DNA of 11,079 nucleotides from a virus. The translations under genes and the position numbers were made by a program. The stretch's first letter is position 1. The number at the start of each line of letters is the position of its first letter. A model generated the notes under the pieces. It saw only the letters and a list, made by a program, of their open reading frames with translations. It did not search any database and had not been told where the DNA came from. Where the stretch lies: UHGV virus genome UHGV-0353412, one strand, 5' to 3'. Shown piece by piece: positions 1,583 to 6,844 of this stretch.

Positions 1583-1800
1583 GAAAACAACCCATTATCA
1601 AATACAAGGCCCGACATGAAAACGCCAGAAAAAGGCATTTTCGGACACTTTCATGTCGGACCTTTACGGATGCAATATTAAAAAAAACAAAAAGTTATAT
1701 TCGAGAAGTACCGACACGATTTTCCCTGAAAAATTTTCATAAATAGTGAAAAACCGCGAGGTCGCCGCCCCGTAACGATCTGGATCACCGGAAAGGACCC
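1583..1800 (-). other. cos site: cosN with lambda-type 12-nt cohesive end (AGGTCGCCGCCC on plus strand at 1759..1770), cosB between cosN and Nu1, cosQ-like sequence at 1771..1800
   Basis: Reverse complement of 1737..1770 reads GGGCGGCGACCTCGCGGTTTTTCACTATTTATGAAAATTTTT, near-identical to the lambda left end GGGCGGCGACCTCGCGGGTTTTCGCTATTTATGAAAATTTTC. Reverse complement of 1771..1801 reads CGGGTCCTTTCCGGTGATCCAGATCGTTACG, matching the lambda right end. cosB (1583..1750) diverges from lambda and carries an inverted repeat CCGACATGAAA (1611..1621) / TTTCATGTCGG (1649..1659). Confidence 0.85.
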
Positions 1801-1993
1801 GCCAACGACTTTCGCGTGCAGGCATTAAAAATTTTGCAGTTCCATGCCTAGTTGAAACCTCGATTTCTATAACATCCAATTTTGTAAATTTAGATATAGC
1901 TCAACTTTTCCCAATGTTTTCAAGTGTATAAAAACAATTGGCGTTACGCCATAACACTATACTTAGGATAAGTAAAGATTTTAAGGAGTTTTA

Positions 1994-3061
1994 ATGAGTC
2001 AACATCAATATTATCCACAGCTGAAATGGAAGCCTGCTGAATATGAATCTCTGATGCTTTTAGATCAAACTACGCTCTCTGGTTTTACTCCGATCATTAC
2101 CATTCCAGACATAGACTGGGATTATGAAAACGAATGCTACAAGAAGAATTTGAGTTCTTACTTATCTGACTTCGGTATTAACCTTGCGGCATCCTGGAAA
2201 GCCAATCGTCCTGTTTTGCTGGATGTTAAATATTTAGATAAACATGGTTCGAGCCGCCATCATCCTCTAGATATGTGTATCCAAGATGCTAGAGTAAATG
2301 GTAAGGAAATTATCCCTGTTGTTTCTCCCGCATATTCAACAAACTATATACATGCTGTTCAACGCAACTTAATCAATGGGCTCGCTATATCTATCACCCC
2401 CCAGACATGGCACCAATTCACAAGTCTGGTTAACCACTTAAATATTCATCCTAGTTTAATTGATGTAATCATTGATTTTGGAGATATTCAAAACGCAACT
2501 GATAGTTTAAAACAACAAGCATTAAGCATGGTCAACACATTATCAGGCCAAGCTCCGTGGAGAAACTTGATTTTATCTTCAACCGCATACCCGGCATCAC
2601 AGGCAGGGATACCGCAACATCAAGTTCATCATATTCCGCGCCATGAATACGATCTTTGGATGTACGTAGTACAGAATTTTAGCAATGGAAGAACGCCAAG
2701 TTTTAGTGATTATCCCACCGCTAGCTCTACCATTACGAGCGTAGACCCACGCTTCATGTCTCAGTATGTCTCAGTGAGATATTCGAACGATACCTCATGG
2801 ATCTTTGTAAAAGGTACCGCAGTTAAAGGAAATGGATGGGGCCAAACTAAAAACTTATGTACTACCCTTGTTAGTTCGCCAGAGTATCAAGTCTTTGGCT
2901 CCAAATTTAGTTGGGGGGATGATTACATTTACCAAAGATCATTAGGCGCTAACAAATCTGGCGGCTCTAAAGAATGGCGTAAAGTTGCACATACGCACCA
3001 TATTACGTTAGTCGTGAGACAGCTTTATTGGTTGGCGCAGACTCAGCCTGCCAAGCCTTAA
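1994..3061 (+). CDS. Hypothetical 355-aa protein of the AT-rich cassette; possible 'beta protein / sce7725-like' family member (unverified), candidate defence component
   Basis: Uninterrupted 355-codon ORF with a strong SD (AAGGAG, 5-nt spacer, ATG at 1994) and an AT-rich upstream region containing TG-TATAAA at 1925..1932. About 37% GC in sampled 60-nt lines versus about 57% in a sampled line of the Rz gene. It is the only sizeable plus-strand gene in an otherwise minus-strand prophage. N-terminal YYPQLKWKPAEYESL resembles what I recall of beta/sce7725-family N-termini, but I cannot confirm this without an HMM search. Confidence 0.8.
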   Translation: MSQHQYYPQLKWKPAEYESLMLLDQTTLSGFTPIITIPDIDWDYENECYKKNLSSYLSDFGINLAASWKANRPVLLDVKYLDKHGSSRHHPLDMCIQDARVNGKEIIPVVSPAYSTNYIHAVQRNLINGLAISITPQTWHQFTSLVNHLNIHPSLIDVIIDFGDIQNATDSLKQQALSMVNTLSGQAPWRNLILSSTAYPASQAGIPQHQVHHIPRHEYDLWMYVVQNFSNGRTPSFSDYPTASSTITSVDPRFMSQYVSVRYSNDTSWIFVKGTAVKGNGWGQTKNLCTTLVSSPEYQVFGSKFSWGDDYIYQRSLGANKSGGSKEWRKVAHTHHITLVVRQLYWLAQTQPAKP

Positions 3062-3623
3062 CTTTCCAGCCTACGCGTTTCTTTAAGGCTGTTCTGACTT
3101 CAGGCCTGAGATTCGCTATTGGAATATTTTCCGCAATAATATTCCATAACTCAAATCGGGGCTTGCTTTTGATTCCTTTGGAATAGCCCCATCGTTCAAG
3201 TACGTCGATACATTCATCTTTCCAAAGCAATTGAGCGAGCATCAATGTGTCATGGTTTCGATTAAGCTTTTCTCCACGCATGTGCTTTATAAGAATGGCG
3301 CCTTTTGGCCCAACAGAAACCGTTTTAACGCCCCACCAACCTGGGATTAACTTTAATGCTCCCTCAAGGTGTTTCTCAGCTACGACAAGAGTAACCTTGT
3401 CCATTACAGAAGAATAATGCTTGATTTGAAGAGGCAAACGCTCCAAAGAGTCATATTCACTTTTGAGCTCGTACCCGTGTATAACACCATTTATTACAGC
3501 AATGTCTGCTCTACTGGCGCCAAGGGATATGGAAAATTCATCGACCACAAGGCAGTCTGGATCTAAATGCGATTCTTTCAAAAGCTTATGATGCACCGCG
3601 AACCTAACATCTTGATCTTTCAT
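3003..3623 (-). CDS. PD-(D/E)xK nuclease-fold protein, 206 aa (possibly sce7726-like); candidate effector of the cassette
   Basis: ORF with SD GGAGGGAGTAAGGAG upstream of ATG at 3623. The translation carries a canonical PD-(D/E)xK signature: E17 and D28/E29, then SRADIAVING (D40, codon 3504..3506), then GYELKS (E52 at 3468..3470, K54 at 3462..3464), followed by LPLQIKHY. Convergent with the 355-aa gene and overlapping it by 59 nt at the 3' ends. Confidence 0.85.
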   Translation of the reverse strand: MKDQDVRFAVHHKLLKESHLDPDCLVVDEFSISLGASRADIAVINGVIHGYELKSEYDSLERLPLQIKHYSSVMDKVTLVVAEKHLEGALKLIPGWWGVKTVSVGPKGAILIKHMRGEKLNRNHDTLMLAQLLWKDECIDVLERWGYSKGIKSKPRFELWNIIAENIPIANLRPEVRTALKKRVGWKVKAWQAESAPTNKAVSRLT

Positions 3624-3651
3624 GACTTCTCCTTACTCCCTCCGTTATTGA

Positions 3652-3680
3652 ATTATAGCGCACTGCATTTTACTGCATTT
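3652..3680 (-). promoter_or_regulatory. Putative promoter and operator for the nuclease gene: perfect -10 TATAAT (minus strand; plus 3652..3657) flanked upstream by two tandem 9-bp direct repeats (plus-strand ACTGCATTT at 3662..3670 and 3672..3680)
   Basis: Minus-strand sequence reads AAATGCAGTAAAATGCAGTGCGCTATAATTCAATAACGGAGGGAGTAAGGAGAAGATG. The -10 hexamer is consensus, but no good -35 is present; the direct repeats have a 10-bp period and occupy the -35 position, which suggests activator or repressor binding. Confidence 0.4.
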
Positions 3681-3969
3681 GAGAGATTTGACCACTTCAA
3701 TCACAAAATGCTTATCTGCAGCAACAAGATTCATAGCCATACGACTATGGTGATTACCTTTTGTCTGGAAAAATGACCATTCCACGAAGATCAGATAGGT
3801 CTATAGAATCTTGGTTTGTCATAGCGTTCGTCTTACTTTGAGATGAACCTTTGCTGCATAGGAGATCAGCCCGTCAAGGCTCACCAGCACTAACTGACTA
3901 CTCAAAGGCTCATTCCAAAGGGTTTGGTTCGACGTGGTTGAGTGCGCTGCGGTGCGCGGTGAAATACCT

Positions 3970-5869: not shown

Positions 5870-6265
5870 CTAACCTCGCATGTCAAAGCCAGATTTCTGA
5901 AAATCTCTGTAGACTTCCGGATTGTTGAAGGCCGGAAATTTGGCTTTATGAGCTGCGGACTTTATCGCTTCGCAATAGGCTTTATCACCGTTACTGGTAG
6001 ATATTTTTAACGCCGTGCCATCCTGAGAGAATTCCATATGCAACCTGCATTTTTTCCCTTTCCAGTTATGCGGCTCATCAAGTTTGGCATTAATTGCAGC
6101 TCTGATTCCCCGCGCTTGCGCCCCCCATTCATCCTGATCATCCCAGCGTCCTGAACTGCAACTACCTGTAGCAGTAGTTTTGTGGCAATCTGAAGGGTGT
6201 AAAGGTGTGCATCCCGCAACAAAACCGACCCAAAAAGTCAACATAACGATTTTCTTTAATCCCAC
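5870..6265 (-). CDS. Lipoprotein with a divergent TolA domain-III-like C-terminal domain (moron)
   Basis: 131-aa ORF with GTG start at 6265 preceded by SD GAGGAG. Signal peptide with lipobox (MGLKKIVMLTFWVGFVAGC). The C-terminal KGKKCRLHMEFSQDGTALKISTSNGDKAYCEAIKSAAHKAKFPAFNNPEVYRDFQKS is paralogous to the C-terminus of the adjacent 142-aa lipoprotein and shares its TolA-III-like pattern. Confidence 0.8.
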   Translation of the reverse strand: MGLKKIVMLTFWVGFVAGCTPLHPSDCHKTTATGSCSSGRWDDQDEWGAQARGIRAAINAKLDEPHNWKGKKCRLHMEFSQDGTALKISTSNGDKAYCEAIKSAAHKAKFPAFNNPEVYRDFQKSGFDMRG

Positions 6266-6415: not shown

Positions 6416-6844
6416 TCAGGGTTTAAAATCCAGCACCCCATTTTGAAATACTTTATATACTTCCGGCGAAGGGGGGGCAGGTATATCAGCATTCTTTATC
6501 GCATTCATCGCTTCACGACATAAATCGAGGTCTCCACTTTCTCTTTTAACCTCCAGTAGAAGGCCATTCGGGGCCATATGCATTCTCAGTGTACACTCTT
6601 TTCCTGAATACTTACTCGCATCCCCGAACTGTTTTTCGATGGCGCTCTTGATTTGATGGGCATACAGACGGATATCCTCACTAACATCAGAAGTACGTTC
6701 AGATGAACTCACATACTGTGTCTCTATTGCTTTATCGGAGTAATATGATGTACGGTCATGATAATTTGTCGATACAGCATCAGTGCACCCGATAATAATC
6801 CCACTAATAATCAACGTAAGAATTGATGCGCTACGAAAACCCAT
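6416..6844 (-). CDS. Lipoprotein with a TolA C-terminal domain (domain III)-like fold (moron)
   Basis: 142-aa ORF with SD GAGGAAAA before ATG at 6844 and lipobox IIGC. The C-terminal YAHQIKSAIEKQFGDASKYSGKECTLRMHMAPNGLLLEVKRESGDLDLCREAMNAIKNADIPAPPSPEVYKVFQNGVLDFKP aligns along its length with the E. coli TolA C-terminus as I recall it (YAGQIKSAIESKFYDASSYAGKTCTLRIKLAPDGMLLDIKPEGGDPALCQAALAAAKLAKIPKPPSQAVYEVFKNAPLDFKP). Confidence 0.85.
   Translation of the reverse strand: MGFRSASILTLIISGIIIGCTDAVSTNYHDRTSYYSDKAIETQYVSSSERTSDVSEDIRLYAHQIKSAIEKQFGDASKYSGKECTLRMHMAPNGLLLEVKRESGDLDLCREAMNAIKNADIPAPPSPEVYKVFQNGVLDFKP

What the first reader, a model, noticed from the sequence alone, without database searches (positions are those of the whole stretch)
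3003..3061. The two cassette genes converge and overlap by 59 nt at their 3' ends
The 355-aa ORF (plus strand) ends at 3061 and the 206-aa ORF (minus strand) ends at 3003, so the last 19 to 20 codons of each are encoded on opposite strands of the same DNA with no terminator between them. Convergent transcription through a shared 3' region implies mutual interference or antisense coupling of their expression. That would be one way to hold a potentially toxic nuclease and its partner in fixed stoichiometry, or to make one gene's expression conditional on the other.
Basis: seen in the sequence. Interest (0 to 1): 0.45.

Follow-up and report, generated by a model that had tools for sequence, protein, structure and literature searches.

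The report
Interlocked tail-to-tail defence gene pair
Two facing genes of a prophage defence-type cassette really do share 59 bases at their ends; the length is an accident of one lost stop codon, but facing, interlocked ends are a fixed trait of this gene pair across many bacterial phyla.

Summary
The Beta-family gene (1994-3061, +) and the sce7726/cII-family nuclease gene (3003-3623, -) overlap by 59 nt, and RefSeq annotates identical ends.

The length is not conserved. The nearest relatives (about 76% nt identity) overlap by 11 nt. In the E. coli lineage one T>C change at 3052 is synonymous in Beta but turns the nuclease's TAG stop into TGG. This adds 16 non-conserved residues, 15 of which are predicted disordered.

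The architecture is conserved. In 58 of 63 pairs sampled through sce7726, and 75 of 75 sampled through Beta, the genes are convergent and overlap by 10-158 nt. Almost all overlaps are in one phase. In 49 of 61 pairs the conserved cores sit in one exact register, with Beta's Q codon 5 nt past the nuclease's W codon. Only about 12-14 nt are under double constraint; the tails are run-on.

No terminator-like site lies at the junction, so antisense overlap of the two mRNAs is probably unavoidable. Whether this regulates expression is untested. Three E. coli genomes carry IS-disrupted Beta with an intact nuclease gene, which argues against a strict toxin-antitoxin balance.

The parts
1994..3061 (+). 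Beta-family gene (355 aa), predicted TIM barrel with a long C-terminal helix (residues 325-350)
3003..3623 (-). sce7726 / P4-cII-family gene (206 aa), PD-(D/E)xK nuclease fold
3003..3061 (.). 59-nt convergent overlap of the two ORFs. Phase 1: first codon positions face each other, second faces third.
   Evidence: phase worked out from the coordinates.
3051..3061 (.). 11-nt part of the overlap shared with the nearest relatives (Klebsiella, Edwardsiella, Pantoea, Pectobacterium)
   Evidence: L002-L005 all overlap by 11 nt.
3051..3053 (-). sce7726 codon 191 TGG (Trp). Relatives have the stop TAG here. The difference is T>C at 3052, which is synonymous in Beta (Ala353 GCT>GCC).
   Evidence: Junction alignment.
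3003..3050 (-). Lineage-specific run-on of sce7726 (codons 192-206 plus stop). Non-conserved and predicted disordered. Encoded antisense to Beta residues 337-353.
   Evidence: pLDDT below 50 for residues 192-206.
3023..3061 (+). 39-nt spacer specific to this enterobacterial clade (Beta residues 344-355 plus stop). It separates the two conserved cores that interlock in most other lineages.
   Evidence: Register +44 in this clade against +5 in 49 other pairs.
2996..3022 (+). Beta's conserved C-terminal motif HH-x6-Q (H335-Q343), used as the Beta anchor for the register
3066..3068 (-). sce7726 conserved Trp186 codon, the end of the conserved core (motif K-x-R-x-x-W)
3667..3694 (-). Promoter-like site upstream of sce7726 (TGGTCA-16-TAAAAT). 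An equivalent site occurs in the Klebsiella relative.
   Evidence: consensus match only.
1981..3715 (.). Extent of nucleotide homology to related cassettes (74-76% identity), taken as the limits of the mobile two-gene cassette. GC is 41% against 47.5% in the flanks.
1939..1951 (-). First terminator-like hairpin plus T-run downstream of sce7726 on its strand. It lies beyond the whole Beta gene.
   Evidence: consensus match only.

Best explanation
The 59-nt overlap is the local, accidentally lengthened form of an old architectural trait of a two-gene module. The module pairs a TIM-barrel 'Beta' protein with a PD-(D/E)xK nuclease (sce7726, the family of P4 cII).

Shown:
- In this family the two genes always face each other and their 3' ends nearly always interpenetrate.
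- In most lineages the conserved protein cores interlock in one fixed nucleotide register. Beta's conserved Q codon ends 5 nt past sce7726's conserved W codon, in phase 1.
- Only about 12-14 nt are constrained by both proteins. Beyond that, each ORF runs on through the partner's coding strand to the first stop.
- The window belongs to a derived enterobacterial clade with a 39-nt spacer between the cores, where relatives overlap by 11 nt.
- In the E. coli prophage one T>C change at 3052 (synonymous in Beta) converted sce7726's TAG stop to TGG. This added 16 non-conserved residues, 15 of them predicted disordered, and stretched the overlap to 59 nt.

The length is therefore a by-product and not a tuned device.

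Inferred:
- What probably matters is the layout: two separately promoted convergent genes with no room for a terminator between them.
- Each mRNA must then end inside or beyond the partner gene. This gives complementary 3' regions and head-on polymerase traffic, and so reciprocal dampening of expression.
- In this prophage, Q-antiterminated late transcription runs with sce7726 and against Beta. Induction should therefore tip the balance towards the nuclease.
For: Ends and gene identity.

Stop loss:
- Relatives read GCT AGG CCC TAA, with TAG on the other strand; the window reads GCC AAG CCT TAA.
- Most homologues are 188-193 aa long and conservation ends at W186.
- The tail is disordered in the AF2 model.
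- A 16-codon run-on is ordinary for that antisense frame.

Family architecture:
- Every pair found in 65 genome loci from more than ten phyla is convergent. 58 of 63 pairs overlap, with a median of 50 nt, and 54 of 58 overlaps are 2 mod 3. The Listeria locus adds one more.
- 49 of 61 anchorable pairs sit in register +5.
- An independent sample chosen through Beta in metagenomes gave 75 of 75 convergent pairs, overlapping by 50 or 62 nt.
- Phage records show the same: Rac-SA53 41 nt, Gordonia phage DumpsterDude 89 nt.

Dual constraint is limited to about -7..+7 around the W codon. For example, the third position of sce7726's Arg codon is A in 48 of 49 loci, while ordinary third positions carry about 1.9 bits of entropy.

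No terminator. Promoter-like site for sce7726, conserved in Klebsiella.

Late-operon context: Q, holin, lysozyme, Rz, Nu1 and terL all lie on the - strand, and cosN is at 1759-1770.

Precedent for antisense control through a convergent 3' overlap: mscL-arfA (PMC10070815).
Against: - No transcript data exist for this cassette. Rho could end each untranslated read-through soon after the stop codon (my own knowledge of E. coli Rho), leaving little antisense RNA.
- No sigma-70-like promoter for Beta was found in the window, and cassette homology starts only 13 nt before Beta's ATG. Independent convergent transcription of Beta is therefore assumed, not shown.
- P4 and two other loci keep the pair but separate it by 14-39 nt. 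P4 has a strong hairpin in the gap, so overlap is not indispensable.
- A fixed register is what purifying selection on two interlocked cores would preserve even if the overlap had no function of its own.
Confidence: 0.6

Rival explanations
1. Frozen accident with no regulatory role. The cores came to abut once. Any indel there would damage both proteins, so the register is simply inherited. Transcripts are ended by Rho or processed independently, and the overlap has no effect on expression.
For: - Only about 12-14 nt are doubly constrained and the tails are unconstrained shadows.
- Overlap length ranges from 10 to 158 nt with no conserved tail sequence.
- Stop positions are fixed by the partner's conserved residues. 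For example, sce7726's stop lies opposite Beta's Ile-Asn in the 50-nt subfamily.
- P4 works as a defence system with a 27-nt gap and a terminator.
Against: - Orientation is convergent in every pair seen.
- Where the register has changed (window clade, L055, three Bacillota loci) the genes still overlap, or lie less than 40 nt apart. This hints at a constraint on closeness itself.
- With no terminator, some antisense read-through is hard to avoid.
Confidence: 0.3
2. One reading: the 59-nt shared 3' region is itself an adaptive antisense device that sets the nuclease-to-partner stoichiometry, or makes one gene's expression conditional on the other.
For: The overlap is real, no terminator is present, and an antisense precedent exists in mscL-arfA.
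Against: - 48 of the 59 nt stem from a single stop-loss change confined to the E. coli lineage.
- The added residues are non-conserved and mostly predicted disordered.
- Sister lineages have tails giving proteins of 190, 192 or 202 aa.
- Three genomes tolerate IS-disrupted Beta with an intact sce7726 gene.
Confidence: 0.07
3. Linkage device: interlocked ends keep the two genes from being separated by recombination or deletion, so the module always transfers whole.
For: The module is mobile and compact. Its homology block is 1981-3715, with GC 41% against 47.5% in the flanks. It is found in prophages, satellites and chromosomes of many phyla.
Against: Close adjacency without overlap would give almost the same linkage. 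sce7726 occurs alone in phage Mx4, and Beta occurs without sce7726 in PD-lambda-2.
Confidence: 0.03

Closest known systems
gop-beta-cII anti-phage system of satellite phage P4 (PADLOC gop_beta_cll)
   Same: It has homologues of both proteins (PADLOC 'beta' and 'cll' hits; tblastn to P4 cII). Beta and cII are convergent in P4 too. Both cassettes sit next to cos of a mobile element. The P4 system protects against lambda and P1 (PMC9122126).
   Different: There is no gop gene here or in any other sampled locus. P4 has a 27-nt gap with an annotated terminator instead of an overlap. P4 cII is 264 aa, with a C-terminal extension. Identity is low: 27% for cII, and the Beta match has E 7e-4 by phmmer.
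PD-lambda-2 defence system (Vassallo et al. 2022)
   Same: The best PADLOC hit of the 355-aa protein is PD-Lambda-2_C (6e-32). [quoted passage not shown]
   Different: PD-lambda-2 pairs Beta with a HigB-like protein and a HigA-peptidase protein. It has no sce7726 nuclease and no convergent overlap has been described for it.
mscL-arfA convergent pair of Enterobacterales
   Same: A tail-to-tail arrangement in which 3' CDS/UTR overlap allows antisense-RNA control (PMC10070815).
   Different: In mscL-arfA the spacing is not conserved and the arrangement is confined to one order. Here the overlap and its register span many phyla, but no regulation has been shown.
Generic long convergent gene overlaps in prokaryotes (phase-1 class)
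   Same: Same phase: first codon positions face each other and second faces third. This is reported as the favoured phase for convergent overlaps longer than 4 nt (bioRxiv 10.1101/2025.11.07.687268).
   Different: From my own recollection of the literature, most described long convergent overlaps are lineage-specific or annotation errors. This one is defined by stop codons and recurs in every pair sampled.

Membership tests
Pfam Beta_protein (PF14350) | Full-length match above the gathering score | tested here: met
   190.6 bits against a cut-off of 27; residues 6-342 match model positions 1-342 of 342.
NCBIfam sce7726_fam (NF033832) | Match above the curated cut-off | tested here: met
   184.1 bits against a cut-off of 70; residues 1-183 match model positions 1-182 of 184. 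The last 23 residues lie outside the model.
PD-(D/E)xK nuclease superfamily (sce7726 protein) | Restriction-endonuclease-like fold with a D...(D/E)xK catalytic motif | tested here: met
gop-beta-cII system (P4 type) | A gop toxin gene upstream of beta | tested here: not met
   No PADLOC gop hit in the flanking ORFs. phmmer with P4 Gop finds only P4 itself among all loci.
gop-beta-cII system (P4 type) | Beta and cII homologues, adjacent and convergent | tested here: met
PD-lambda-2 system | HigB-like and HigA-peptidase partners next to the Beta homologue | tested here: not met
   The cassette (1981-3715) holds only two genes. The flanks are phage genes Rz and Nu1. The small flanking ORFs have no PADLOC hit.
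Antisense-coupled convergent gene pair (mscL-arfA type) | Overlapping complementary transcripts that change each other's level | not testable with these tools
   Only DNA is available. No terminator-like site lies at the junction. A promoter-like site was found for sce7726 only.
Toxin-antitoxin pair (sce7726 toxin, Beta antitoxin) | The antitoxin gene cannot be lost while the toxin gene is intact | tested here: inconclusive
   Beta is split by IS1, IS3, or IS2 plus ISCro1 in three complete E. coli genomes with an intact sce7726 ORF. Expression and activity of sce7726 in those strains are unknown.

The most novel reading that the evidence does not exclude
The convergent, interlocked layout of Beta and sce7726 is an ancient, selectively maintained expression switch for a widespread two-gene anti-phage module (TIM barrel plus PD-(D/E)xK nuclease). 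Obligatory sense-antisense overlap makes the two genes mutually exclusive. Any strong transcription entering from one side, such as Q-driven late transcription of the carrier prophage or read-through caused by an infecting phage, flips the module from the Beta-dominated to the nuclease-dominated state.
Probability: 0.15. Interest if true: 0.75.

Novelty: new variant of a known kind. Interest (0 to 1): 0.5.

Why it matters
Almost all known anti-phage systems are co-directional operons. This is a defence-associated pair whose two genes are always convergent, with 3' ends interlocked in one register across many phyla.

- It is one of the few conserved antiparallel coding overlaps in bacteria that does not depend on gene prediction, because it is defined by stop codons and by two well-supported protein families.
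- It gives a clean natural system for studying how two proteins share DNA.
- It offers a testable case for convergent-transcription control of a potentially harmful nuclease.
- It has a practical side: annotators can miss one partner. The sce7726 ORF is unannotated in Gordonia phage DumpsterDude.

For this particular window the message is sobering. The eye-catching 59 nt is mostly a neutral stop-loss extension.

Tried and rejected
- **Terminator or stable hairpin in or near the overlap:** none in the window or its clade. Across the family the junction's folding energy is unremarkable (median percentile 0.38).
- **Terminators embedded inside Beta for the sce7726 mRNA:** only sporadic. Two good and about four weak cases among 58 loci, all of the CPR/Bacteroidota type.
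- **The clade-specific 39-nt spacer as a tandem duplication of the ancestral dual-coded segment:** no similarity above noise (at most 41% identity). Its origin is unresolved.
- **A gop-like third gene:** none.
- **Sequence search of both protein profiles against PDB:** nothing significant. Fold searches were needed instead.
- **Megablast of the cassette against the phage collection:** no match.
- **Rfam:** nothing inside the cassette.
- **A sigma-70 promoter for Beta:** none found at the scan's threshold.
- **Ghisotti et al. 1990 (P4 gop/beta/cII transcripts):** could not be read. What I say about it comes from its citation in PMC9122126 and from the P4 record's annotation.
- **A very diverse Beta alignment as a collection query:** unusable. 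A narrower subfamily alignment was used, so the Beta-based sample covers one subfamily only.
- **Literature searches for sce7726, PF14350 and 'beta family protein':** no functional study of the two-gene form and no mention of the overlap.

Full report
**The observation.** The window holds an ORF at 1994-3061 on the + strand (355 aa) and one at 3003-3623 on the - strand (206 aa). The sequence shows TAA at 3059-3061, and TAA on the other strand at 3005-3003. The two ORFs therefore share 3003-3061, which is 59 nt.

Both are well-supported genes:
- The + ORF is a full-length Pfam Beta_protein (PF14350, E 7e-56). It also hits PADLOC PD-Lambda-2_C and 'beta'.
- The - ORF is an NCBIfam sce7726-family protein (184 bits against a cut-off of 70). 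It hits PADLOC 'cll', the cII protein of satellite phage P4.

RefSeq annotates exactly these ends in an identical copy. The cassette is >=99% identical in 127 of 5426 complete E. coli genomes.

**Context.** The cassette lies in a lambdoid prophage.
- On the - strand lie Q antiterminator, holin, lysozyme and Rz upstream, and Nu1 and the terminase large subunit downstream.
- A 12-nt match to GGGCGGCGACCT, which I recall as the phage lambda cohesive end (the match is tool-verified, the identification is from memory), lies at 1759-1770.
- Nucleotide homology to related cassettes in Klebsiella, Edwardsiella, Pantoea and Pectobacterium covers only 1981-3715 (74-76% identity).
- GC content is 41%, against 47.5% in the flanks.

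This is a two-gene insertion between the lysis genes and cos. sce7726 points the same way as the late operon and Beta points against it.

**What the proteins are.**
- An AF2 model of Beta (pLDDT 93.5) is a TIM barrel followed by a long C-terminal helix at residues 325-350. The Beta residues encoded in the overlap are therefore structured.
- Residues 192-206 of sce7726 have pLDDT below 50.

**Is the 59-nt overlap conserved? No.**
- Homologues of sce7726 are mostly 188-193 aa long, and conservation ends at W186.
- The nearest relatives (80-85% protein identity) end at residue 190 and overlap Beta by 11 nt.
- At the junction they read CCG GCT AGG CCC TAA. sce7726's stop TAG is the reverse complement of gCTAgg.
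- The window reads CCT GCC AAG CCT TAA. The T>C at 3052 is silent in Beta (Ala353) but turns TAG into TGG (codon 191). The ORF then runs 16 further codons (Trp191 plus 15 more), to TAA at 3003-3005.
- Other members of the clade have proteins of 192 or 202 aa, so this stop drifts.
- A 16-codon stop-free run is ordinary for that antisense frame. The mean run is 10.4 codons and 23% of runs are at least 16.

**Is overlap as such conserved? Yes, strikingly.** I fetched 65 loci from one genome per species, using sce7726 peptide patterns far from the junction. They come from:
- Enterobacterales, Vibrionales, Aeromonas and Burkholderiales;
- Myxococcota, Acidobacteriota, Desulfobacterota, Bacteroidota and Ignavibacteriota;
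- Armatimonadota, Omnitrophota, Dormibacterota and several Patescibacteria;
- Bacillota and Actinomycetota.

The results were:
- Every locus with a detectable Beta gene has it convergent to sce7726.
- 58 of 63 pairs overlap, by 10-158 nt with a median of 50. In 54 of 58, the overlap length is 2 mod 3.
- A Listeria locus found with a profile adds another 10-nt overlap.
- Phage records agree: Rac-SA53 overlaps by 41 nt and Gordonia phage DumpsterDude by 89 nt.
- A second sample, chosen through Beta instead, came from metagenomes and covers one subfamily with 52-67% identity. It gave 75 of 75 convergent pairs, overlapping by 50 nt (73 loci) or 62 nt (2 loci).
- The exceptions are P4 (27-nt gap holding a strong hairpin annotated as a terminator), two gammaproteobacterial loci (gaps of 14 and 39 nt), and two pseudogenised loci.

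**Anatomy of the shared region.** I anchored each pair on sce7726's conserved Trp (window W186) and Beta's conserved Gln (window Q343).
- In 49 of 61 pairs the Q codon ends exactly 5 nt past the W codon.
- The phase has first codon positions facing each other and second facing third. This is the phase reported as favoured for convergent overlaps longer than 4 nt.
- A per-position entropy profile of the 49 loci shows a clean hand-over. Upstream of W, only the sce7726 frame is constrained; its third positions carry about 1.9 bits. Downstream of +7, only the Beta frame is constrained; sce7726's second positions carry 1.8-2.0 bits.
- Only about -7..+7 is constrained by both frames. For example, the third base of sce7726's Arg codon is A in 48 of 49 loci, because it is the middle base of Beta's hydrophobic residue after Q.
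- About four codons of each gene are therefore truly dual-coded. The longer tails are run-on, and their stops fall where the partner's conserved residues create them. In the 50-nt subfamily, for instance, sce7726's stop lies opposite Beta's Ile-Asn.
- The window's clade is derived. A 39-nt spacer (3023-3061) separates the cores, giving register +44. I could not show that the spacer arose by duplication.

**Transcription signals.**
- No terminator-like site lies within 120 nt of the junction in the window or its clade, and the junction is not unusually structured.
- On sce7726's strand the first terminator-like hairpin is at 1951-1939, beyond the whole Beta gene.
- On Beta's strand there is none for 5 kb.
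- A promoter-like site (TGGTCA-16-TAAAAT, 3694-3667) precedes sce7726 and recurs in Klebsiella.
- No such site was found for Beta in the window.

**Function of the module.**
- P4 gop-beta-cII protects against lambda and P1, and gop and beta were proposed to act as a toxin-antitoxin pair (PMC9122126).
- A phage gene, orf184, triggers cell death through that system (bioRxiv 10.1101/2023.04.06.535777).
- The Beta homologue of PD-lambda-2 is needed for defence (PMC9519451).
- gop is absent here and in every other sampled locus. The two-gene Beta plus nuclease form is therefore the common one, and P4 is the exception.
- Three E. coli genomes carry Beta split by IS elements with an intact sce7726 gene. 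This argues against Beta being an indispensable antitoxin at native expression levels.

**Interpretation.**
- Shown: the overlap is real. Its length here is a recent by-product of a stop loss. The convergent, interlocked layout is an old and nearly invariant family trait, with a short region that is truly dual-coded.
- Inferred: with no room for a terminator, the two mRNAs must overlap in antisense, and polymerases must meet head-on. This should make expression of the two genes reciprocal. In this prophage, late transcription should favour the nuclease.
- The main rival is that the layout is a frozen accident, with Rho-dependent termination removing any coupling.
- I found no description of this overlap in the searchable literature.

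Noticed in passing
window 1759-1770 (- strand): There is an exact single match to GGGCGGCGACCT, which I recall as the phage lambda cohesive-end sequence. The cassette therefore sits about 210 nt from cosN, much as the P4 defence hotspot is described as adjacent to cos.
   Followed up: partly
L231 (NZ_CP042892.1), L232 (NZ_CP027312.1), L233 (NZ_CP042350.1): In three complete E. coli genomes the Beta gene is split by IS1, by IS3, or by nested IS2 plus ISCro1. The sce7726 gene and its upstream region remain intact in all three, and no converse case was seen among the 127 genomes.
   Followed up: partly
L069 2932-3633 (Gordonia phage DumpsterDude, MT024859.1): A full-length sce7726 homologue (43.5% identity over 99% of the query) is not annotated in this record. 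A small gene on the opposite strand is annotated there instead, probably because the ORF overlaps the Beta homologue (gene 33) by 89 nt.
   Followed up: partly
L033, L040, L047, L050, about 55-82 nt past the junction on the sce7726-sense strand: Some CPR and Bacteroidota-type loci carry a GC hairpin plus T-run inside the Beta ORF, antisense to a Lys-rich variable insertion of Beta. This would terminate the sce7726 mRNA shortly after its stop. The feature is sporadic and absent from the window's clade.
   Followed up: partly
window 5870-6265 and 6416-6844 (- strand): Two adjacent paralogous small ORFs between the tRNA genes and the holin gene each carry a TolA C-terminal domain (Pfam PF06519, E 1e-14 and 2e-23). 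The corresponding place in strain E100341 holds a DUF6645 gene instead.
   Followed up: no
window 6955-7145, 7844-7917, 8021-8093 (- strand): Rfam finds the sRNA STnc100 (114 bits) and two tRNA genes between the Q antiterminator gene and the lysis genes.
   Followed up: no
L065 2978-4387 and 5806-7650: One acidobacterial contig carries two copies of the pair side by side. Both copies are convergent and overlapping, and both are partly degraded by frameshifts.
   Followed up: no
one of the viral loci L071-L098, junction region equivalent to window 3040-3046: One E. coli prophage variant differs from the window by what appears to be a single substitution in the overlap, and it changes both proteins at once (sce7726 Ala to Asp, Beta Gln to His).
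   Followed up: no
L070 (Myxococcus phage Mx4, OK085710.1) 2992-3561: Here an sce7726 homologue sits inside a co-directional operon with no Beta gene nearby, so the nuclease can occur without its usual partner.
   Followed up: no
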